The position numbers and the translations under genes are program-made. A stretch of DNA of 53,048 nt from a virus. Its lineage: Duplodnaviria; Caudoviricetes. The stretch is from positions 1 through 53,048 of IMG/VR virus record IMGVR_UViG_3300024302_000014. One strand, written 5' to 3'. Within the stretch, counting starts at the first letter, position 1. Every line of letters begins with the position of its first letter. The notes under the pieces are model-generated. The model saw only the letters and a program-made list of their open reading frames with translations, was not told where the DNA came from and did not search any database. Shown in pieces: positions 43,387 to 51,891 of the stretch.

Positions 43387-44688
43387 TCAAAAGGTAACGT
43401 ACGCAGCTACGAAGGTATATAAACTGTACCTAAGAGCATCCGCCATATGCGAAGCCATGTTATGAACGGGCTTCTCCTTTAGTAAATTCAAATTTGGATC
43501 CCATTGATACTGATCCAAGGAAGCTAAGGACTTTTTACATCTCTGATCTACTATAAGTTGGTTGTTCTCTACTATTGTAGCCACCGAGGAGATTCCCGCC
43601 AAAACATCTTTTGTAGCGTTGACCGTCGAAATATCGTAGTCTTGAGCCAGGTCCCACCGCATTTGCTGCGCGGCGGAATCAATGTAAATGACATCGATGT
43701 CCCACTTCTCTATTAAATCTCGAATAACTTCAGCATGCTGCTCAGTAGTTTTCTCGGCTTCCATGTATTCGTCGACAAGATAATATAGCTCTGTTTCCCA
43801 ATCGTAAGCCATTACACAAAAGGCAGTAGGGTCTCTATATCCGACATCGAGACCTGCAAACACATCCATATTGCTAACATCTAGATCCTCTAGGTCCTCT
43901 ACACAATTCTCGAAATCGAAGTCCCAAATCTGTCCCTCAAACTGGTTGAAGTCCGCAAGGTACTCCTGTGAAAATTCAGCCTTCGACATTCCCTTTTTAG
44001 CTTCTTCAATATCTTTAGCACTTACACGGGGATTTTCATGGTATGTAGCATGTATACTAGCCCAGTCCGTGAATTCTTCACTAAAACCTCGATGATAGAA
44101 GTCTGCGAACCAGTTGTTTCTACCACGAGGTGTAGATATGAAAATAGCCTTGGAATTTGGCTTGTCAAGAGTAGGTCTAAGAGCAACATTAAATGCCTCT
44201 AAGCCGTCTGATAATGCAGCCTCGTCGAAGATAATCAAATCATACGAACGACCAACCACGGAATCTACTTGATTCACAGAGCCCATACGAATAGTAGAGC
44301 CATTGGAAAGTTCAATAATTTTATCCTTCGCATTGTCTCGAGTTACCTCAAGATCGAAATGTTTGATCAGGCTACGCTGTAGATCGAATGAAATTTGAGA
44401 AAGTGAGTAGTTGGGACTCATTATCAGGATATTAGTACCAGGAACTAAGGCAGATAGCTGCCCTATAATATTTGATATATATGTTTTGCCCTGGCGTCGA
44501 GATAGTGCAGCAACAATAAACCTATACTTAGGGTTGTTAACTGCATTAAGTAGGGCTACCTGGGACCTAATCGGTTGAATCCCTAGTAACTCCATGTAAC
44601 TATCTATAGGTAATTTAATAAACCTATCTGCTTTGTCGAAAGTTTGAATACTTTCGGCACTAATATCATCTCTGCTAATCTCTAACAT
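43387..44688 (-). CDS. terL: Terminase large subunit (T5-like)
   Basis: Walker A SRRQGKT, Walker B LIIFDEAA, ISTPRG, nuclease GLDVG and SHMADALRY. Confidence 0.95.
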   Translation of the reverse strand: MLEISRDDISAESIQTFDKADRFIKLPIDSYMELLGIQPIRSQVALLNAVNNPKYRFIVAALSRRQGKTYISNIIGQLSALVPGTNILIMSPNYSLSQISFDLQRSLIKHFDLEVTRDNAKDKIIELSNGSTIRMGSVNQVDSVVGRSYDLIIFDEAALSDGLEAFNVALRPTLDKPNSKAIFISTPRGRNNWFADFYHRGFSEEFTDWASIHATYHENPRVSAKDIEEAKKGMSKAEFSQEYLADFNQFEGQIWDFDFENCVEDLEDLDVSNMDVFAGLDVGYRDPTAFCVMAYDWETELYYLVDEYMEAEKTTEQHAEVIRDLIEKWDIDVIYIDSAAQQMRWDLAQDYDISTVNATKDVLAGISSVATIVENNQLIVDQRCKKSLASLDQYQWDPNLNLLKEKPVHNMASHMADALRYSLYTFVAAYVTF

Positions 44689-44691
44689 TTA

Positions 44692-45126
44692 TTATCTCTT
44701 CATTGCGGCTGACCCAAAGTAAAAGCCTATAATATTCATAATAGCTACAGGTAGCCACTCTGGGGTTACAAACCCCTGTAAAGTAATGTACTCAGTTACA
44801 GTATGTGTAGTATCTATAAATAGGAACTTAACCCCCTCTGTAATCTCAATAGGTACATTGGTTTGAATCCCCAGAATAGGGGCCAGGAATACAATTCCGA
44901 TCCCTGCCATTAAACTCATAATAACTATGAAGCGCCTAATCCAGGCTGCATTAGGGTTCTGCATCTGACGTGCATTATTAACGCCCTTCTCTACTTGTAG
45001 ATTAGACTGCATTAACATTTTATGTTGCTCAGCTTTATCAGCCTGCGCCTGCCCCCACATCTTCATTAGTCCACCCATTGCGGTGGACCCTAACATACTT
45101 ATTGCTTCAATTGGTAATCCAAACAT
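44692..45126 (-). CDS. Holin-like membrane protein (3TM GTA-holin-like)
   Basis: Hydrophobic segments; WIRR and C-terminal IIGFYFGS motif. Confidence 0.6.
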   Translation of the reverse strand: MFGLPIEAISMLGSTAMGGLMKMWGQAQADKAEQHKMLMQSNLQVEKGVNNARQMQNPNAAWIRRFIVIMSLMAGIGIVFLAPILGIQTNVPIEITEGVKFLFIDTTHTVTEYITLQGFVTPEWLPVAIMNIIGFYFGSAAMKR

Positions 45127-45136
45127 ATATTCTCTC

Positions 45137-45442
45137 CTATTTCTTGCAATTGCAAGTAGTTTTCTTAGGTGTATCTAGCAGCTTATCAGCTACTTTGTAC
45201 ACTACTGCTTTTAGTCCAAAGATCACTAGTACTAGTATGCCTACGATAGTAGTGTACCATTCTGGTGCTTTGCCTAAGTTTTCCCACGCCTGAGCAAGAG
45301 TTACCTCGCTAAAGATAGGGGCTAGAAAGTTCATGACAATAGGGAAAGAGAATACAATTACTATTGCTTCATCCTTCCAACTATTGTCCATGCTTTCTTC
45401 TGCAATTTGATGATCTAGTTTCTTTTCTTCTTCCATATTCAT
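45137..45442 (-). CDS. Holin-like two-TM membrane protein
   Basis: SWKDE...P..PEWY...FG motif family with two hydrophobic helices and a basic C-terminus. Confidence 0.6.
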   Translation of the reverse strand: MNMEEEKKLDHQIAEESMDNSWKDEAIVIVFSFPIVMNFLAPIFSEVTLAQAWENLGKAPEWYTTIVGILVLVIFGLKAVVYKVADKLLDTPKKTTCNCKK

Positions 45443-45547: not shown

Positions 45548-46051
45548 TTAATTTGCAAGAGGATTGTCTAATGCTCGTTGTACCTTAGCATTTAACCTAT
45601 CCTCCAACTCTTTTATGTCTGTTTTATTAGATGCCCTTAATTGGTCACGTTTAGTTTCAAATCGTACTTCAGCATCATCAATCATATCTCGTACTTTATC
45701 CTCTAAAGCATTAACATCATCTTCTGTTCTATCCGATACCTTTTCAATTCTACTAATATCATCACGTAATCCGTTTTTGATATCTCTTGTATAATCCAAT
45801 GTACTTTCAATCTTAGCATCCATCAAATCCATTTGAGTTTGATAAGCACCAACATCTAAGTTAGCAATACCTTCAATCTTCTGATACATAGTGAATCCAC
45901 CATACAACGTACCCATCACTGTAGATAATACAGCGAATGCCATACCTAATTGTGTAGGGGTCAGTTTATAACCAAGGATACTAAATTCACCGTTGGCGAA
46001 CTTATCCTTAATTGCATCAATTTTATTTAAGTCTTTGCTTAGGTCTGACAT
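45548..46051 (-). CDS. Single-TM membrane-anchored coiled-coil protein
   Basis: TM segment LGMAFAVLSTVMGTLYGGF followed by a long heptad-rich region ending ALDNPLAN. Confidence 0.7.
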   Translation of the reverse strand: MSDLSKDLNKIDAIKDKFANGEFSILGYKLTPTQLGMAFAVLSTVMGTLYGGFTMYQKIEGIANLDVGAYQTQMDLMDAKIESTLDYTRDIKNGLRDDISRIEKVSDRTEDDVNALEDKVRDMIDDAEVRFETKRDQLRASNKTDIKELEDRLNAKVQRALDNPLAN

Positions 46052-46052
46052 A

Positions 46053-46451
46053 TTAATTCTCGAATTGTAATCTTCTAAGTTTCTTCAACTCTTGTTCTAA
46101 CTTCACCACTTCTAATCGTTTCTTTCTAAGTTCCAATTGGTATAACGTGTTACAGTTTATACGTTCCTTTGGAGCATTCAATGGTATTACTATCCTTGCA
46201 TATAAACCCAAATCCTTTGTTGTAGGATTATCTGGATCATCAGAACTAAATGGTGTTTGAGCATTATTAACAATACCTGTTATACCAAACTCCATATTCA
46301 TTGTACCACCAATAGCATTAGAACAATCTAAATTACCTGCTCTAAACTTATCAGATGCATAGCTATTTGTCATAGATGGTAACTGTAAAGACAATGCATT
46401 ATTAGCATTCACATTTAAACTTAACATCATTAATATAAAGAAGTATCTCAT
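46053..46451 (-). CDS. Exported protein with Cys-flanked amphipathic beta-hairpin and C-terminal coiled coil
   Basis: Signal peptide MRYFFILMMLSLNVNA; strands TMNMEFGITG and LGLYARIVIPL between two Cys. Confidence 0.7.
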   Translation of the reverse strand: MRYFFILMMLSLNVNANNALSLQLPSMTNSYASDKFRAGNLDCSNAIGGTMNMEFGITGIVNNAQTPFSSDDPDNPTTKDLGLYARIVIPLNAPKERINCNTLYQLELRKKRLEVVKLEQELKKLRRLQFEN

Positions 46452-46849
46452 TTTATCTTAGAACAAATCCTAGATGCTATACCTGTTGATATAACATCAC
46501 TCTTAATTAGTTTAGACTTAGAACAAATATATGTTGAATTACTCAAGTCTTTAGTATTAATGTATAAATCAAATGACACCGTTTCAAGATAATCCATTTT
46601 CATTATCTTATACGTTGTTACGAAGGGTACTGGTTCCCATTCAGAATCAAATACCCCTATTTCGTAATATGAAACATCACTTCGTCTATTGAATAATCTC
46701 ATCTTAGTTTTTTGAATACCTGAAATAAATGAGGATTCAAATTTAGGATAAGTTGGAGTCATCTCATGTGCTTTCGCGTCAACTGTCAATACTAGCCCTG
46801 CAATGAAAAATGCAACGCATATTAATATTGTGACTCCACTATTATTCAT
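46448..46849 (-). CDS. Exported protein, putative PapD-like (Ig-fold) chaperone
   Basis: Probable start 46849 (TAAtATG coupling); signal peptide ending AKA; beta-rich MRLFNRR..YYEIGVFD..W..VPF; C-terminal Cys pair. Fold is inferred. Confidence 0.55.
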   Translation of the reverse strand: MNNSGVTILICVAFFIAGLVLTVDAKAHEMTPTYPKFESSFISGIQKTKMRLFNRRSDVSYYEIGVFDSEWEPVPFVTTYKIMKMDYLETVSFDLYINTKDLSNSTYICSKSKLIKSDVISTGIASRICSKIK

Positions 46850-46850
46850 A

Positions 46851-47345
46851 TTACTTAGCGATACACTCAGCAACTAATACAGCACTGTATACACCACCTG
46901 GGAATGCTTTGTCATACCCGTTTGTGGCTGATAGAGTGGCAGAGAACCAAGTTGAGCCAGCAACCGTTAGGTCGTATTCAGTAGTAGCATCATATGTTAC
47001 CTTTGCCGCTTCATAACCAGACATACCAGCATCAGAAGTTTGTGCTACCGCAGTTGAACCAGTCCAAGTAACTGTATCAATTAAAGCAGGTGAAGATGAG
47101 AAACTTGTAGGAGTTGTAATCTTTGCTTTGTATGAATCTGCTAATGTGATATCATATCTTACAACTGGTAATACACCACCTGATGCAACTGCTGTACTTA
47201 ATGTATGTGGGGTAGGGTTGCCATACACACCTGGAATATCCGTTGTGATTAGACATCTCATTTGAACATTACCTTGTACAGGCACATCTGTTGCCATTAC
47301 GTTTAAAGCCAAAGTGGCTGCTACTACTGTTAATACGTTTTTCAT
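46851..47345 (-). CDS. Exported protein, putative fimbrial/pilin subunit
   Basis: Probable start 47345 with GGAGA RBS; signal peptide MKNVLTVVAATLALNVMA; N-terminal VPVQGNVQMRC and C-terminal PGGVYSAVLVAECI resemble chaperone-usher pilin termini. Fold is inferred. Confidence 0.55.
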   Translation of the reverse strand: MKNVLTVVAATLALNVMATDVPVQGNVQMRCLITTDIPGVYGNPTPHTLSTAVASGGVLPVVRYDITLADSYKAKITTPTSFSSSPALIDTVTWTGSTAVAQTSDAGMSGYEAAKVTYDATTEYDLTVAGSTWFSATLSATNGYDKAFPGGVYSAVLVAECIAK

Positions 47346-47346
47346 A

Positions 47347-48237
47347 TTATTCTCCGTTATATTGCATTTCAACCATTTCATTATGTTTTTGCTGTTGAGC
47401 AAGACCCATTCTTGCTCCTTTCTTATTATCGGGTAAGTGTTTATCCTTTAGACTTATTGTCTCTTTGTAAACACCACCTTGAATCTTTTTATCGTAATAA
47501 CTTTGTACGTTCACACTTAAAGTCATTGCCTTCATTAAATGATTTTGAGCAACAGTTTGTGCCGCCATAATACTATTATCAATCTCAGATAATAGATTCT
47601 CAATATCAATTTCTTCTTCCTCTTCATCTTCTGACACTTCATCAGTATCATCGTCTTTTAATTCTGTTTTACTACTTAATGCATTCTTAACATTATCATC
47701 ATCCATTGCATCATATGCTTCTGCTGTTGGAATACCTTTTAATGTACTCAATAAAGCATCATTGTATCCAGGACAACTCGGATCTGACAATGCTGTAATA
47801 CAAGAATCGTCAAATTTATAACTATAAACAACAGAAGCATCAACAACAGAACCTGTGCCTTCGACTTCAATAGAACCATCCCCCCAATATTCTTGAGGAA
47901 CATTTGGTACACCAATCACTTTATTAATAGGTGTGCCCCCTGGTCTGCCACTCCAATCATCTGTCTCTCTAAAGATATATCCACCGTTCACAGCATCTTC
48001 ATTCTGCACGTGGACTTTCATATCATCTTCAGTATTCTTAATTGGTGTATATTGATAATACACACCGTTAACACTTAGGTTATTTGCTTCAGGAAACAAG
48101 TCAGGCATTCCCCAACTGCTACCATTTGCTGCAGCATTACCTGTTGTTCCGTATGTCCAATTAGAGTAAGAACAAGACGCCGAGAACAGTACTGCCAATG
48201 CCAGTAAGTAACTCAATCGGATCGATACCTTCATCAT
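47347..48237 (-). CDS. Exported protein with beta-rich N-domain, Cys pair and acidic linker (adhesin or tip-like?)
   Basis: Probable start 48237 with AAGGAGG RBS; signal peptide; CITALSDPSCPGY; acidic run DEVSEDEEEEEID. Confidence 0.65.
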   Translation of the reverse strand: MMKVSIRLSYLLALAVLFSASCSYSNWTYGTTGNAAANGSSWGMPDLFPEANNLSVNGVYYQYTPIKNTEDDMKVHVQNEDAVNGGYIFRETDDWSGRPGGTPINKVIGVPNVPQEYWGDGSIEVEGTGSVVDASVVYSYKFDDSCITALSDPSCPGYNDALLSTLKGIPTAEAYDAMDDDNVKNALSSKTELKDDDTDEVSEDEEEEEIDIENLLSEIDNSIMAAQTVAQNHLMKAMTLSVNVQSYYDKKIQGGVYKETISLKDKHLPDNKKGARMGLAQQQKHNEMVEMQYNGE

Positions 48238-48730
48238 CGTTACCCTCCTTAATAGGTTTTGCATCTACATCATTATCCCAAGCAATTCTAGCATCAGAAC
48301 CAATGATACCATTATACGGACAAGGTGTTCCTGCCATCAGCATAGCATCAAATACTCTAACGTCTTGGCATAGTACTGATACCGCGGCAACTTTCATTCC
48401 CATATCATATAATGTTTTTGCATTCTTTAGACGTTCACAGTTTAAATCTCTACTTGTTGTACCAGCACTTATACCAAGTATCTGTGTTTGAACAGCACCT
48501 GCTACACCAACAGTACAAGAATCTGAATTAGAACTACCATTGAATGTAGGTGTAATTGCAGAAGGGGGTGGAGACTTCACCGTAGTTGTCACGTCACCTG
48601 TCGAGTGTACTGTACTGCTTGTTGTTGAATCTGTTACAATAGGGTCTAATGCCACTACTTCCGAACCATAGAAAAATAGTGCTAAAACCAGTACTAACCA
48701 GGTCCACGCTATTTTCTCTTGTGACTGCAT
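48161..48730 (-). CDS. Exported or membrane protein with Cys-flanked beta-hairpin and C-terminal hydrophobic anchor
   Basis: Signal-like N-terminus; SCTVGVAGAVQTQILGISAGTTSRDLNC; LCQD..GTPCP; C-terminal LLTGIGSTVLGVLFLL. Confidence 0.7.
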   Translation of the reverse strand: MQSQEKIAWTWLVLVLALFFYGSEVVALDPIVTDSTTSSTVHSTGDVTTTVKSPPPSAITPTFNGSSNSDSCTVGVAGAVQTQILGISAGTTSRDLNCERLKNAKTLYDMGMKVAAVSVLCQDVRVFDAMLMAGTPCPYNGIIGSDARIAWDNDVDAKPIKEGNDDEGIDPIELLTGIGSTVLGVLFLL

Positions 48731-48731
48731 A

Positions 48732-49442
48732 TTAATACCCTCCTTTATGAGTTAAATATTTAGCCTGAATATACGCCTTTACTAAACCACTTCGAACAAT
48801 ATCTTCTGCTTGGAAGTGGTTGGTAGCAAACCATCTGGGCATCGAACTCAACACATCTACAAATTTACAAATGTTTTGATCTGATCTTTTTGTAAAATCA
48901 GTCTGCATAAAGTCTCCACAGAACAATGCAATAGAGTTCTGCCCTAATCGTGTTAATACGGAATCAGCCTCATGGGACGTACAGTTCTGAAACTCGTCCA
49001 TAATCAAGATGCAATTGTCTAAGGTTATACCTCTAACATAAGAAGTAATCATAAAACGTATTACACCATGCTTTATTAGAATTTCGTACGCGTCATCTCT
49101 CCCGAATAATTCTGAGCATATCTTCCTATAGGGTAGTTCGTAAACTTGAGATTTCTCTTCCAAGTTACCCGGTAAGAATCCTATATCACGCGTAGGAACA
49201 GCACTTCGTACTATTACCAACTGCTGGACGTCTCTTCCACCTGTCATAATGTCTTCGAATGCTTTATACATGCTAAGGAAGGTCTTACCCGTTCCTGGGA
49301 ACCCCATAACTAGTTGGGATCTACCCGTATCGTAGTTATCGAAAAAGCTTTGCTGTGCCTCAGTCATTGCCTCTATTGAACATAAGCTAAGATTAAGTTT
49401 TGCTATAGCGCTTGACGCTGTTATTTTTTTCTTTTTGGACAT
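48732..49442 (-). CDS. phoH: PhoH-like ATPase
   Basis: Walker A GFPGTGKT; RSAVPTRDIGFLPG; RGITLD; DEFQN; TRLG; GD..QTD; DIVRSGLVK. Confidence 0.95.
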   Translation of the reverse strand: MSKKKKITASSAIAKLNLSLCSIEAMTEAQQSFFDNYDTGRSQLVMGFPGTGKTFLSMYKAFEDIMTGGRDVQQLVIVRSAVPTRDIGFLPGNLEEKSQVYELPYRKICSELFGRDDAYEILIKHGVIRFMITSYVRGITLDNCILIMDEFQNCTSHEADSVLTRLGQNSIALFCGDFMQTDFTKRSDQNICKFVDVLSSMPRWFATNHFQAEDIVRSGLVKAYIQAKYLTHKGGY

Positions 49443-49445
49443 TAA

Positions 49446-50801
49446 TTAATAGTGTGAAACTACAAAGCTGAAGTCGCACGAAACACTGGGACCGCCTACG
49501 GTTGCAGGTGCGGCTGCTATAAGGTCGGCTATAGAAAAGGTTACGAAAGGGCCATTCAAGAACGCAGGTATTACAGCAGCAGCAGTTCCCGGCCCTGCAA
49601 ATCCTCCCATAACATCATAGGTTACCATCACCCCGTGTAAGCTTGAAAGCTGTGACATACCGTTTCCCATGCCTGCAGCACTAATTTCAATGCTTCCCAT
49701 ACCGTTATCTATAGCAGTCCATAGCATTCCTGTAGTACCTGGAGGGTTACCAATAAAGTTTACAGCTCCATTTACAAAGTCTACTACTAAGTTAGCGCGG
49801 TATGTAGTAGCTATAGGCGGCAACTCTCTTACCGTCATAGAATTTAATAGCGCGTCCCAAACCGCAGAACCGTTAGTCATTAGCCCTACTACTAAGGCTT
49901 GCTGCCACGCCGAACTACTAGTAGAAGTGCTAGAGTCCGCTGGGTCGAACACCCAAGGGACAACATCTACAGTACCAGAGGAAACCGCCGTATCGGTAAG
50001 TCCTATCATAGTGTTAGACCCAGCAGGACCGGTAGCCCCGTCATTTCCAGCAGGACCGGTAGCTCCGTCACTTCCAGCAGGACCGGTAGCCCCGTCACTT
50101 CCAGCAGGACCGGTAGCCCCGTCACTTCCAGCAGGACCGGTAGCCCCGTCACTTCCAGCAGGACCGGTAGCTCCGTCACTTCCAGCAGGACCGGTAGCCC
50201 CGTCATTTCCAGCAGGACCGGTAGGACCGGTAGGACCAGCAGGACCAGCACTTCCTGTAGCTCCGTCATTTCCAGCAGGACCTTTCCCGCCTTCATCGTC
50301 TACAAAGTCTGTTTCGGAGTACATACTAGGAGTAGCTATGTCGGAGAAGCCAATATCAGTTAGGAACTCAGTCCAATGATATAGAGCAGGGTTATATGAA
50401 GCGTCCGCAGGGTCACATAATGGATCTCCTGGGTAGTACGCGGTTAGTGCAGCAATCAGGTAATTTTCGTCCGGGTACGTACCTGGTACTACTCTAGAGT
50501 CCGCTAAGATTCCTGCAGGGGTGACTCCCGACACCTTCTTAGCAATCCTAACCTCTCCTGCAGAAGTAATGGCAATCTTATGCTCATCTCCAATAAATAG
50601 GGAGTTAGTTGATACGAAAAGGTCTTTTACTTTCTTAGAGGCTGTTCCTATAGTGAGTGTGTCGTCTCCTGAAGGAACTAAATTACCTGCTGAGTCCTCT
50701 GACCAATTAGATAGTGATCTATCGTTTAACTCACTAAAGTTATTGTCCATTTCGGCATGAGATAGCTCTATGCCTTTACCAATTCGTGTTACTATTGCCA
50801 T
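49446..50801 (-). CDS. Collagen-like fibre protein
   Basis: N-terminal [17 protein letters not shown] virion-anchor motif; Gly-X-Y tract of GPAG[SN]DGAT repeats. Confidence 0.8.
50020..50283. repeat. 27-bp coding tandem repeat (collagen GPAG[SN]DGAT)
   Basis: Seven tandem near-identical units of CCAGCAGGACCGGTAGC(C/T)CCGTCA(C/T)TT plus one offset copy. Confidence 0.9.
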
Positions 50802-51426: not shown

Positions 51427-51891
51427 TCATCCCTCTTTTAAAAGCTTTTGCATCAGCTCTCCGTAATTGCCAGATCCGAAAGGGGTCTCATTGATCTGTA
51501 CATTTGTTTGTTGTTTTATTTGGCTATGTTCCGCCTTTACTAGCTCGGTTTGAGCCTTTAGTTCTTCCATACGCATCTTGTGGGCTAAAGCCAGCAAGTC
51601 TGCTATATCTTTATTAGAGCCCATTTCTGACTCGTCAAGTTCTTCCAGTTTTTGTTCAATTATGCCATCTAAAGCCGAGGCAAGTTTAAACTTATTACGA
51701 TATCCTACATCCATAAAGACTGTATCAACATACCTCTTGACTTCTTTTTTGGCAAGGTACGTTGTTACTTCTTGCTCACTGATGCCCAGGTCTCCTGCAG
51801 TGTCTGCTATGTTCATGGATTTCAGGTAAGCTTCAGCCACAGAAAGTGCTTCGGGGGCAATTTGCGTAACTAAAGCTGGTTGATCGGTCAT
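51427..51891 (-). CDS. terS: Terminase small subunit (T5-like)
   Basis: PEAL.VAEAYL...EVK.Y...FMD.GYRN...KLEELDESEMGS.KDI.D.L..AHKMRMEE...QTNVQ...NY matches the T5 TerS pattern. Confidence 0.9.
   Translation of the reverse strand: MTDQPALVTQIAPEALSVAEAYLKSMNIADTAGDLGISEQEVTTYLAKKEVKRYVDTVFMDVGYRNKFKLASALDGIIEQKLEELDESEMGSNKDIADLLALAHKMRMEELKAQTELVKAEHSQIKQQTNVQINETPFGSGNYGELMQKLLKEG

What the first reader, a model, noticed from the sequence alone, without database searches (positions are those of the whole stretch)
45548..48730. Phage-encoded six-gene exported cassette resembling an usher-less chaperone/pilin surface-appendage system
Seen: six tightly coupled genes (TAAtATG junctions at 48732/48730, 47347/47345, 46851/46849, 46053/46051, plus two overlaps). 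Five have Sec-type signal peptides and paired Cys; the sixth has one TM helix and a long coiled coil. Established: virion proteins assemble in the cytoplasm, so signal-peptide proteins like these should act in the host envelope. Inference on roles: 46851-47345 is a pilin (N-terminal V.GNV..C strand, C-terminal PGG.YSA.L strand as in chaperone-usher/Csu-type subunits); 46448-46849 is a single-domain PapD-like chaperone; 47347-48237 is a tip or adhesin; 46053-46451 and 48161-48730 are pore candidates; 45548-46051 is an inner-membrane tether. No ~800-aa usher is present. A lytic phage building a fibre or pore on the infected cell (aggregation, superinfection exclusion, uptake, or a non-canonical outer-membrane lysis step) would be an undescribed system as far as I know.
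Basis: partly seen in the sequence, partly recalled or inferred. Interest (0 to 1): 0.88.

Follow-up and report, generated by a model that had tools for sequence, protein, structure and literature searches.

The report
Phage six-gene exported envelope cassette
A marine phage carries six tightly linked genes for proteins exported into the host cell envelope: three form a module common in ocean phages and often beside lysis genes, and three resemble a rare bacterial pilus-like operon; none matches a named protein family.

Summary
Six translationally coupled minus-strand genes (45548-48730) encode five proteins with signal-peptide-like N-termini and conserved cysteine pairs, plus one membrane-anchored coiled-coil protein. 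All 69 related viral loci that are long enough keep all six genes in the same order.

The cassette is a composite.

- **Core (g6, g5, g1).** These three occur without the other three in many marine phages, including cultured Pelagibacter and Roseobacter phages. They usually follow tail-fibre genes. An endolysin from one of three families lies within 5 kb in 29 of 88 loci.
- **Inserted trio (g4, g3, g2).** It matches, in the same gene order, rare five-gene operons of marine Alphaproteobacteria that lack an usher and carry three g4-like genes.

g4 is faintly like SCPU/Csu-type pilins and g3 faintly like the PapD N-domain. Both links are weak. No usher, CsgG or lipoprotein was found.

Phage-encoded fibre secretion is already in print (curli T8SS in pelagiphages), so the concept is not new. 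This cassette, however, matches no Pfam, NCBIfam or PDB family.

My best reading, at moderate confidence, is a Sec-exported assembly that spans the envelope and acts around lysis. A surface fibre remains a live rival.

The parts
48161..48730 (-). g6, 189 aa. It has a signal-peptide-like N-terminus, a Thr/Ser-rich spacer, an SPPPSA-type motif, a very conserved four-Cys domain, a charged linker and a C-terminal TM-like tail. Core component.
   Evidence: Alignment A5 has 37 sequences at 52-82% identity with 4 invariant Cys. All 8000 scored candidates match at E<=0.001, which is the cap, with no Pfam hit and no name. Relatives occur in 13 cultured-phage records. No Pfam or PDB hit.
47347..48237 (-). 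g5, 296 aa. It has a signal-peptide-like N-terminus, a ~130-aa Trp/Tyr/Gly-rich domain with a Cys pair, an acidic linker and a conserved C-terminal tail ending near ..MQY. Core component, here in its short form.
   Evidence: Alignment A7. Large 460-850 aa forms with the same C-terminal tail sit between g6-like and g1-like genes in three-gene loci. None of 10 large forms has a Pfam domain.
46851..47345 (-). g4, 164 aa. Exported protein with an N-terminal alternating V.V.G.V.M.C strand and a C-terminal FPGG.Y....C strand. It is a candidate SCPU-like (Csu-pilin-like) subunit.
   Evidence: Alignment A3. 121 representatives at E<=0.001. Atlas SCPU lead. hhalign to SCPU via distant relatives. Three paralogues per bacterial operon. 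No Pfam SCPU hit.
46448..46849 (-). g3, 133 aa. Exported single small domain. The mature end starts at an invariant His (HEMTP), with an LFN.R.DV..Y motif and a C-terminal Cys pair. It is chaperone-like only by faint PapD_N likeness.
   Evidence: Alignments A4 and A10. 2912 clusters at E<=0.01, none with Pfam. Atlas PapD_N score 0.83. hhalign 8-38%. Bacterial counterpart at HMM E 3e-5 to 2e-7.
46053..46451 (-). g2, 132 aa. It has a conserved N-terminal S-L-N-L-Q-L-P strand. Two ~10-residue amphipathic strands flank a 14-32 aa variable loop, stapled by C43-C100. A charged C-terminal coiled-coil-like helix follows.
   Evidence: Alignment A6. Column hydropathy and loop lengths. Bacterial counterpart at HMM E 1e-11 to 3e-16. 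No Pfam or PDB hit.
45548..46051 (-). g1, 167 aa. It has a short cytoplasmic N-terminus, a Gly-rich membrane segment, a periplasmic coiled coil and an invariant C-terminal Q.AL.NPL motif. The architecture is i-spanin-like. Core component.
   Evidence: Alignment A8. Only coiled-coil hits below cut-off. g1-like genes lie 2-3 kb after g6-like genes in three-gene loci. In HTVC023P the NPL-ended TM/coiled-coil gene abuts a peptidase M15 gene.
45137..45442 (-). gB, 101 aa membrane protein directly downstream of g1. Holin-like by shape only.
   Evidence: ORF. phrog_2524 at E 4.8e-18, function unknown. The same family flanks the cassette in 7 loci.
44692..45126 (-). gA, 144 aa multi-pass membrane protein between gB and the large terminase.
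   Evidence: ORF. phrog_38283, function unknown. The family flanks the cassette in 14 loci.

Best explanation
The six genes form a mobile accessory module whose products go through the Sec pathway into the host envelope. They are not virion parts and not a true chaperone-usher system. The module has two layers.

**Layer 1, the core (g6, g5, g1).** This three-protein set is widespread in marine phages.
- g6 is held in the inner membrane by a C-terminal anchor. It projects a highly conserved four-Cys domain and a long spacer into the periplasm.
- g1 is held in the inner membrane by an N-terminal anchor. It projects a coiled coil that ends in an invariant NPL motif.
- g5 is soluble. It carries a variable N-terminal domain on an acidic linker and a conserved C-terminal docking tail.

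**Layer 2, the inserted trio (g4, g3, g2).** It was probably taken once from a rare alphaproteobacterial operon.
- g4 is a distant SCPU-like beta-sandwich subunit.
- g3 is a small Ig-like escort.
- g2 is a disulfide-stapled beta-hairpin protein with a C-terminal coiled coil.

**Working model (inferred).** Late in infection these proteins build an assembly that spans the periplasm. g2 sits at or in the outer membrane and reaches down by its coiled coil to g1. g3 and g4 form the part nearest the outer membrane. g5 and g6 dock to the core. The assembly acts at the lysis stage, either in disrupting the outer membrane or in timing it.

**Shown:** gene coupling, co-inheritance, the export-type features, the composite origin, and the neighbourhood of lysis genes.

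**Inferred:** topology, contacts, polymerisation, and the lysis role.
For: - **Coupling and coordinates:**
- **Export-type N-termini and conserved Cys pairs:**
- **Co-inheritance:** 69 of 81 loci have all six genes collinear, 12 are truncated, 0 are exceptions.
- **Mobility:** the flanks vary, and the cultured T5-like Vibrio phage PG07 lacks the cassette next to its terminase.
- **The core occurs alone.**
  - g6 ... g1 without g4, g3 and g2 in 15 loci classed as three-gene (first seen).
  - Gene maps include Pelagibacter phages HTVC115P, HTVC023P and Mosig and Roseobacter phage CRP-810.
- **Six-gene form nested among three-gene forms:** in the quick g6 tree, 67 of 68 six-gene rows fall in one group; 2 changes are needed and 1 is not excluded.
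- **Bacterial counterpart:** the array g4L-g3L-g2L-g4L-g4L occurs in three loci of two Alphaproteobacteria MAGs. No g1, g5 or g6 is there.
- **Lysis neighbourhood.**
  - GH19, SleB-like or M15 endolysin families lie within 5 kb in 29 of 88 loci that have at least 3 kb of flank. This is a lower bound.
  - In HTVC023P the g1-like gene abuts peptidase M15.
  - Small holin-like membrane genes are interleaved.
- **g1 has i-spanin architecture:**
- **g2 hairpin and coiled coil:**
Against: - No fold or complex prediction could be run, so every contact is conjecture.
- No protein has a lipobox: 0-2 members per family. Only 3 of 34 g1 genes hold an out-of-frame lipobox ORF, so there is no Rz1-type partner.
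- Only 1 of 34 g1 members touches a 'Rz-like spanin' PHROG, at E=0.0011.
- Six genes are far more than outer-membrane disruption needs in known phages.
- The hypervariable N-domain of g5 fits recognition of a variable host structure better than a generic lysis step.
- One clade with the cassette also has a 60-aa cationic amphipathic peptide gene between the holin-like gene and the endolysin. That peptide could already do the outer-membrane step (my inference).
- 59 of 88 loci showed none of the three probed endolysin families within 5 kb. No endolysin was identified next to the cassette in the window itself.
- Lysis genes often follow tail genes anyway, so adjacency may reflect a shared late or variable region rather than function.
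Confidence: 0.4

Rival explanations
1. The cassette, or at least g4-g3-g2 with g5 as a tip, builds a Csu/SCPU-type fibre on the infected cell without an usher. g3 chaperones g4, g4 polymerises by donor-strand exchange, and g2 forms the outer-membrane exit. The fibre would serve aggregation, 'sibling capture' or superinfection defence, as proposed for phage-encoded curli.
For: - Atlas leads to SCPU (0.95) and PapD_N (0.83).
- End-to-end hhalign of g4 relatives to SCPU; mature-only score 24 against a shuffled null of 10.1 +/- 1.7, max 15.1, n=60.
- g3 to PapD_N at P=3e-4, while the other families tested (the five other cassette families, plus SCPU as a cross-check) gave P>=0.059.
- Three g4-like paralogues per bacterial operon, as in fimbrial operons.
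- Weak StfA fimbrial-subunit hit on one of them, E=0.0097.
- Invariant Gly in the middle of the alternating N-terminal strand of g4.
- Amphipathic hairpin with a variable loop in g2.
- Precedent for phage-borne fibre secretion: PMC9599517, passages read.
Against: - No Pfam SCPU, Fimbrial or PapD hit in any of 39 g4 members, 10 distant relatives or 10 bacterial proteins.
- hhalign probability drops to 13% once signal peptides are removed, and the phage-only profile gives nothing.
- No usher in the record or in three bacterial genomes that carry the operon.
- g3 is half the size of a PapD-type chaperone.
- The invariant Cys pair ties g4's N-terminal strand to its own C-terminal strand. That may complete the fold in cis and leave no groove for a donor strand (inference).
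- The trio is missing from the three-gene forms, so a fibre cannot be the module's core function.
Confidence: 0.22
2. A superinfection-exclusion or receptor-masking module. The envelope proteins block entry of other phages, or stop progeny from adsorbing to lysed cells. The variable g5 domain would recognise a host surface or periplasmic structure.
For: - The module is accessory and mobile between unrelated phage backbones.
- It usually sits directly after tail-fibre or host-specificity genes.
- The N-domain of g5 is hypervariable, while g6 is very conserved.
- All products are envelope-directed.
- Recalled knowledge, not tested here: known exclusion genes such as T5 llp lie beside receptor-binding genes.
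Against: - Known exclusion systems are one or two small proteins, not three to six.
- There is no sequence link to any of them. PADLOC was not searched.
- The recurrent endolysin and holin-like neighbourhood is not explained.
Confidence: 0.18
3. Virion-associated ejection or tail-accessory proteins with hydrophobic segments, carried in the particle and inserted into the host envelope at entry.
For: The module lies in or beside structural gene regions, after tail fibres. Its proteins have hydrophobic ends.
Against: - Five families keep conserved Cys pairs and cleavable-looking N-terminal signals. These fit periplasmic folding, not cytoplasmic virion assembly.
- The same module occurs on contigs of about 20 to 155 kb with unrelated flanks. 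It is also in cultured phages of different types, including the Kyanoviridae phage Mosig and the pelagiphages named.
- The trio has chromosomal bacterial counterparts with no phage genes around them.
Confidence: 0.05

Closest known systems
Archaic (sigma/Csu-type) chaperone-usher pili with SCPU-domain subunits (Pfam PF05229, PapD_N PF00345, Usher PF00577)
   Same: - Small Sec-exported subunits with an N-terminal alternating strand followed by a Cys, and a C-terminal G.Y-containing strand.
- Several subunit paralogues per bacterial operon.
- A small Ig-like partner gene next to the subunit gene.
- Weak profile and language-model links.
   Different: - No usher.
- The partner is one ~105-aa domain, not a two-domain PapD chaperone.
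- No Pfam match.
- The disulfide joins the N- and C-terminal strands, rather than the two cysteines about 40 residues apart in the N-terminal half seen in the fetched SCPU proteins.
- Extra g2, g1, g5 and g6 components.
Two-component spanins (i-spanin Rz / o-spanin Rz1) of phages of Gram-negative hosts
   Same: - g1 has the i-spanin build: an N-terminal membrane anchor and a periplasmic coiled coil.
- g1-like genes lie beside endolysin and holin-like genes in many loci.
- The set could bridge the inner and outer membrane.
   Different: - No lipoprotein partner, embedded or adjacent.
- No convincing match to spanin families.
- Three to six components.
- No Cys in g1.
- A strongly conserved four-Cys protein (g6) and a variable-domain protein (g5) have no spanin equivalent.
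Phage-encoded curli type VIII secretion (CsgG, CsgF, CsgA/B plus 'HK', 'FecR', 'AC') of Pelagibacter phages (Wittmers et al. 2022, PMC9599517; passages read)
   Same: - A multi-gene, Sec-dependent envelope or fibre module carried as an accessory cluster by marine podo- and myophages.
- Apparently of alphaproteobacterial origin and moved between phage families.
- Abundant in ocean viromes.
   Different: No CsgG, CsgF or curlin repeat. The protein families are entirely different. It is a parallel case, not the same system.
Tad/Flp pilus loci
   Same: One bacterial copy of the g4L-g3L-g2L-g4L-g4L array lies directly after secretin, CpaF-type ATPase, TadB, TadC and a TPR lipoprotein.
   Different: A second copy has no Tad genes within 10 kb. 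g4 has a Sec-type signal, not a prepilin signal. The phage cassette has no Tad parts.

Membership tests
Chaperone-usher pili (incl. archaic Csu/SCPU type) | Outer-membrane usher (~800 aa, PF00577) encoded with the subunits | tested here: not met
   No PF00577 match at E<=1 in the 53-kb record, which is 43% complete. None at E<=0.001 in 3 bacterial genomes that carry the homologous operon. No ORF of that size lies in or next to the cassette.
Chaperone-usher pili (incl. archaic Csu/SCPU type) | Subunit belongs to a pilin family (SCPU PF05229, Fimbrial PF00419 or relatives) | tested here: inconclusive
   - Pfam: 0 of 39 g4 members, 0 of 10 distant relatives and 0 of 10 bacterial proteins hit SCPU.
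- PF05229 search of the record found nothing at E<=10.
- hhalign to 22 fetched SCPU proteins: 75-91% with signal peptides, 13% (P=0.002) without them, and nothing for the phage-only profile.
- Atlas lead 0.95.
Chaperone-usher pili (incl. archaic Csu/SCPU type) | Two-domain PapD-like periplasmic chaperone (PapD_N + PapD_C, ~220-250 aa) | tested here: not met
   g3 is 133 aa, about 105 mature, and is a single domain. It has no Pfam hit. Its likeness to PapD_N is only faint (hhalign 8-38%; Atlas 0.83).
Chaperone-usher pili (incl. archaic Csu/SCPU type) | Incomplete Ig fold completed by donor-strand complementation or exchange | not testable with these tools
Two-component spanins | i-spanin: N-terminal TM anchor plus periplasmic coiled coil | tested here: met
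   g1 has a hydrophobic Gly-rich segment near residues 35-58 and then a helical, heptad-like charged region. Its only hits are of coiled-coil type. Topology is inferred, not measured.
Two-component spanins | o-spanin: outer-membrane lipoprotein (lipobox), with its gene embedded in, overlapping or next to the i-spanin gene | tested here: not met
   Lipobox-like starts occur in 0 of 34 g1, 2 of 40 g2, 0 of 46 g3, 0 of 39 g4, 1 of 43 g5 and 0 of 37 g6. Out-of-frame lipobox ORFs occur in 3 of 34 g1 genes, and none in the window copy.
Two-component spanins | Placement in the lysis cassette with endolysin and holin | tested here: inconclusive
   An endolysin of three probed families lies within 5 kb in 29 of 88 loci. 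There is direct abutment in HTVC023P. In the window itself only two unnamed membrane proteins follow g1.
Curli type VIII secretion | CsgG pore lipoprotein, CsgF and curlin-repeat subunits | tested here: not met
   No Pfam hit for any of the six proteins at E<=0.1 to these families. No PF03783 match in the record at E<=1.

The most novel reading that the evidence does not exclude
The cassette joins two undescribed systems.

(a) g4, g3 and g2 are a new pathway for assembling SCPU-like subunits without an usher: a single-domain escort, a subunit, and a small oligomeric hairpin/coiled-coil outer-membrane component. It is of bacterial origin.

(b) g6, g5 and g1 are a new three-component phage complex that spans the envelope. 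It is one of the most abundant unnamed modules of ocean phages and replaces or controls the outer-membrane step of lysis in phages that lack lipoprotein spanins.
Probability: 0.25. Interest if true: 0.85.

Novelty: new variant of a known kind. Interest (0 to 1): 0.68.

Why it matters
The module is very common. g3 has 2912 clusters. The core is present in cultured phages of SAR11 and Roseobacter, the dominant marine heterotrophs. Yet every member is 'hypothetical' with no Pfam family.

If the core acts in lysis, it would show how many marine phages without recognisable spanins breach the outer membrane.

If the trio builds a fibre, it would be a second case, independent of curli, of phages giving infected cells a surface structure. 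It would also be a new minimal route for assembling pilin-like subunits without an usher.

Either way, the bacterial five-gene operon and the cultured carriers make the question testable at the bench.

Tried and rejected
No model could be made, so fold search could not be used.
- Complex prediction (g4 x2 + g3) was not available.
Data Set S1 of PMC9599517 and Table S3 of PMC12753301 may bear on expression and on whether related genes were catalogued.

**Family and structure-by-sequence searches that gave nothing usable**
- Pfam and PHROGs on the six proteins.
- Pfam on all 39 g4 members, on 10 distant g4 relatives, on 10 large g5 forms and on 10 bacterial operon proteins.
- NCBIfam.
- PDB profile searches of all six families. 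Only coiled-coil noise appeared for g1, including viral fusion proteins, which I do not count as evidence.
- PHROGs on 34 g1 members gave scattered coiled-coil hits.

**Context searches that failed**
- g4 patterns in genome contigs.
- P0211 in viral contigs.
- P0239 in genome contigs.

**Other comparisons**
- DUF4402 gave at most 57%.
- A g2 HMM hit in L191 fell in what looks by eye like an autotransporter-type barrel ORF. I treat it as spurious, or at most as a hint of composition.

**RNA libraries**
- Near-identical sequence is held by 16 seawater runs labelled metatranscriptomic, from 13 studies.
- Contigs of 3 of the 4 runs laid cover the whole 8.6 kb evenly. One 3244-nt contig spans 45409-48652.
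- Even cover of all genes and the contig-only data do not show transcription. I draw nothing from it.

**Literature**
- Searches: 'spore coat protein U' + bacteriophage (6 papers, listing only); pelagiphage + spanin (12 papers, listing only); HTVC023P (10 papers).
- Passages read in PMC9599517, PMC12753301 and PMC11288001.
- None describes this cassette. Three searches do not show that it is not in print.

**Considered and dropped**
- Membership in Tad pili: adjacent in one of three bacterial loci only.
- Fap or curli systems: recalled resemblance in gene number only.

Full report
**What is there.** The window is a 53-kb IMG/VR viral record judged about 43% complete. Its large terminase is about 50% identical to those of T5-like Vibrio phages.

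Genes in the region examined (about 42.7-51.9 kb) lie on the minus strand. Between a PhoH gene (48732-49442, Pfam E 2.7e-39) and two small membrane-protein genes plus the terminase lie six ORFs:
- g6: 48161-48730
- g5: 47347-48237
- g4: 46851-47345
- g3: 46448-46849
- g2: 46053-46451
- g1: 45548-46051

There are four TAAtATG junctions, an ATGA overlap (g3/g2), and a 77-nt overlap (g6/g5) with a strong ribosome-binding site.

**Export features.** No signal-peptide predictor was available, so I used a crude hydropathy test on family alignments. An N-terminal hydrophobic stretch is present in 27-36 members of each of the g2-g6 families (69-89%). A C-terminal TM-like tail is present in 29 of 37 g6.

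The cysteines are conserved in pairs. Two are invariant in each of g4, g3 and g2, four in g6, and two are nearly invariant in g5. g1 has none.

g1 has a Gly-rich membrane segment and then a region that gives only coiled-coil-type hits. Paired cysteines behind cleavable-looking signals are what one expects of periplasmic proteins. That step is inference from general knowledge.

**Is it more than chance?** Yes.
- A search of viral contigs with g4 gave 114 relatives, of which 80 were kept.
- Of 81 loci with a g4 hit, 69 have all six genes collinear on one strand. The other 12 are cut by a contig end. There is no exception.
- Identities fall to 30-60% while order is kept, and the flanks differ.
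- The families are large:
  - g6 filled the cap, with all 8000 scored candidates at E<=0.001.
  - g3 gave 2912 clusters.
  - g4 gave 121 representatives at 50% identity.
  - None carries a Pfam domain or a name other than 'hypothetical'.
- The cultured T5-like phage PG07 has no such cassette beside its terminase. In this lineage the cassette is therefore an accessory insert.

**No known family by sequence.**
- Pfam gives nothing for g2, g3, g4 and g6. g1 and g5 give only noise below the cut-off.
- PHROGs gives weak hits to families of unknown function.
- NCBIfam gives nothing.
- PDB profile searches give nothing except coiled-coil noise.
- No usher and no CsgG are in the record.

**The cassette is a composite.** HMMs of the six families were run over 34 genome-collection loci found with g6, all on MAG or SAG contigs of scattered phyla, and over cultured-phage loci. 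Two forms appeared.
- **Full six-gene form.**
- **Shorter form.** A g6-like gene is followed 2-3 kb later by a g1-like gene.

Reading the loci of the shorter form shows a common plan:
- g6-like gene first.
- Then a large exported protein of 460-850 aa. It has a variable N-terminal part and an acidic linker. In most loci read it also has g5's conserved C-terminal tail. HTVC023P gp46 and its Mosig counterpart gave no g5 HMM hit and end in a coiled coil instead.
- Then, sometimes, small membrane proteins.
- Finally a g1-like protein ending in the same NPL motif.

Carriers of this form include Pelagibacter phages HTVC115P, HTVC023P and Mosig and Roseobacter phage CRP-810. Ten large g5 forms have no Pfam domain.

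In a quick tree of the g6 domain, 67 of 68 six-gene rows form one group nested among three-gene forms. The careful search did not finish, and sampling is biased because most six-gene loci were fetched through g4. So g6, g5 and g1 form a core, and g4, g3 and g2 look like one later insertion.

**Origin of the trio.**
- The profile search with g4 found distant full-length relatives of 152-169 aa. They have the same N-terminal strand plus Cys and the same C-terminal FP.G.Y...C.
- One further relative (P0259) led to two chromosomal contigs, of 286 and 204 kb, from uncultured Alphaproteobacteria MAGs.
- There, and at a second site of one of those genomes, the gene order is g4-like, g3-like, g2-like, g4-like, g4-like. 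HMM E-values are 1e-9 to 1e-25 for g4-like, 3e-5 to 2e-7 for g3-like, and 1e-11 to 3e-16 for g2-like.
- There is no g1, g5 or g6 in these loci.
- One copy follows a Tad pilus locus; another does not.
- None of the three genomes with the operon has an usher.
- The operon is rare. g2-like genes were found in 3 of 401 genomes sampled from that class, and one of those hits is doubtful.

**Testing the pilin/chaperone idea.**
- *Language-model leads.* The Atlas lists an SCPU-named bacterial cluster for g4 at rank 23 (score 0.95, 182 shared features). For g3 the nearest named cluster is a PapD_N chaperone cluster, at only 0.83. These are leads, not tests.
- *g4, with signal peptides.* The distant g4 relatives align end to end with SCPU at 75% (P 2.6e-5). 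With the bacterial paralogues added the figure is 91% (P 1.3e-6). The five other cassette families give at most 2.5%.
- *g4, without signal peptides.* Much of that score came from the signal peptides. With both sides cut to the mature part the probability is 13% (P 0.002). The score is 24, against 10.1 +/- 1.7 (max 15.1) for 60 column shuffles. The phage-only profile gives nothing.
- *g3.* g3 against PapD_N gives 8% (phage only, mature) to 38% (with bacterial members; P 3.3e-4) over 52-56 columns. The other families tested against PapD_N (the other cassette families, plus SCPU as a cross-check) give P>=0.059.

My reading is that g4 is probably a distant member of the SCPU-like beta-sandwich world, and that g3 is an Ig-like domain of uncertain kinship. 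Three paralogous subunits per bacterial operon fit a fimbrial-type logic.

Against a classical mechanism:
- There is no usher.
- The partner has a single domain.
- An invariant disulfide ties g4's first strand to its last.

Donor-strand exchange could not be tested, because structure and complex prediction were off.

**g2.** This family has two ~10-residue strands with alternating hydrophobicity (residues 52-61 and 81-91). They flank a loop that varies from 14 to 32 residues. The base is stapled by C43-C100, and a charged helical tail follows. That fits a hairpin that could join an oligomeric barrel with a periplasmic coiled coil. It equally fits part of a soluble sandwich. This is inference only.

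**Neighbourhood and function.**
- Recurrent neighbours are small membrane proteins and endolysins. PHROGs confirms a GH19-type and a SleB-like endolysin family.
- I seeded a search with these two families plus the M15 peptidase of HTVC023P. An endolysin lies within 5 kb of the module in 29 of 88 loci that have at least 3 kb of flank (17 GH19, 11 SleB-like, 1 M15). Both six-gene and three-gene forms are included.
- This is a lower bound, since only three families were probed. It is not a proof, since late genes cluster anyway.
- In HTVC023P the NPL-ended TM/coiled-coil gene ends where the M15 gene starts.
- g1 therefore looks and sits like an i-spanin. But no lipoprotein partner exists in any family or embedded in g1, and spanin families do not match.

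I therefore favour, at 0.4, an assembly that spans the envelope and is tied to the lysis stage. A surface fibre (0.22) and superinfection exclusion (0.18) are rivals. A virion role is unlikely (0.05).

**Comparison with what is known.** Passages of Wittmers et al. 2022 (PMC9599517) report complete curli type VIII secretion clusters in podo- and myo-pelagiphages. These clusters are of alphaproteobacterial origin, moved between phage families, and make up about 0.1% of viral proteins. The proposed roles are aggregation, 'sibling capture' and superinfection defence.

That is a close conceptual precedent, but the proteins are different, because no CsgG or CsgF is present here. My three literature searches found no description of this cassette. 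That is not proof of absence.

**Verdict.**
- This is a real, abundant, unnamed, composite envelope module.
- Its function is open and testable in cultured carriers.

Noticed in passing
window 49446-50801 (-): A 451-aa protein with collagen-type G-x-y repeats (Pfam Collagen E 2.5e-13; tail-fibre PHROGs) lies just upstream of PhoH. Contigs of one seawater run show two 9-nt deletions in the repeat, at 50172 and 50232, so the repeat varies in length in nature.
   Followed up: partly
window 51427-51891 (-) and 43387-44688 (-): By eye, a 154-aa helix-turn-helix-like ORF resembles a small terminase subunit. It lies about 6.7 kb upstream of the large terminase. The fibre gene, PhoH, the cassette and two membrane-protein genes sit between them, as if inserted between terS and terL. 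No family search was run on it.
   Followed up: no
L057:10225-10407 and 11 other loci: A ~60-aa Lys-rich amphipathic peptide gene lies between a holin-like two-TM gene and the GH19 endolysin, just downstream of g1, in one clade. It might be a disruptin-like outer-membrane agent (my recollection of that class). It has no PHROG hit.
   Followed up: partly
L046:5302-5637; L106:12739-13182; L099:5222-5569: A family of ~110-150 aa proteins has an acidic, EF-hand-like DxDGDG N-terminus and C-terminal membrane segments. It travels with the module: directly after g1 in 17 loci, or between g5 and g1 in three-gene loci. Only an unknown PHROG matches (phrog_27150).
   Followed up: partly
L002:4609-4869 (Roseobacter phage CRP-810): An unannotated 86-aa ORF has a good lipobox (LSAC) and a partial g6-like Cys domain (HMM E 6.5e-4). 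It lies immediately upstream of the g6-like gp53. It is the only lipoprotein-type relative of the module seen. The g1-like gp51 in that record is annotated 'lysozyme', which its sequence does not support.
   Followed up: partly
L185:531-7612: One bacterial copy of the g4L-g3L-g2L-g4L-g4L operon follows a full Tad-type locus (secretin, response-regulator-like protein, CpaF-type ATPase, TadB, TadC, TPR lipoprotein). A vWA protein of 705 aa lies 3 kb further on. A functional link to Tad pili is possible but is not seen at the second locus.
   Followed up: partly
L107:9272-10429 and L099:2274-3443: Some g6 homologues carry 150-250 residues of Asn/Thr-rich low-complexity repeats between the conserved N-terminal tip and the Cys domain. 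The spacer is therefore not a fixed-length ruler.
   Followed up: no
L025:6828-7121 and 7 other loci; L002:6595-6888: A ~97-aa very basic protein family ending in ..AAYWADKVKW (phrog_7595, E 2e-42, function unknown) recurs near the module.
   Followed up: no
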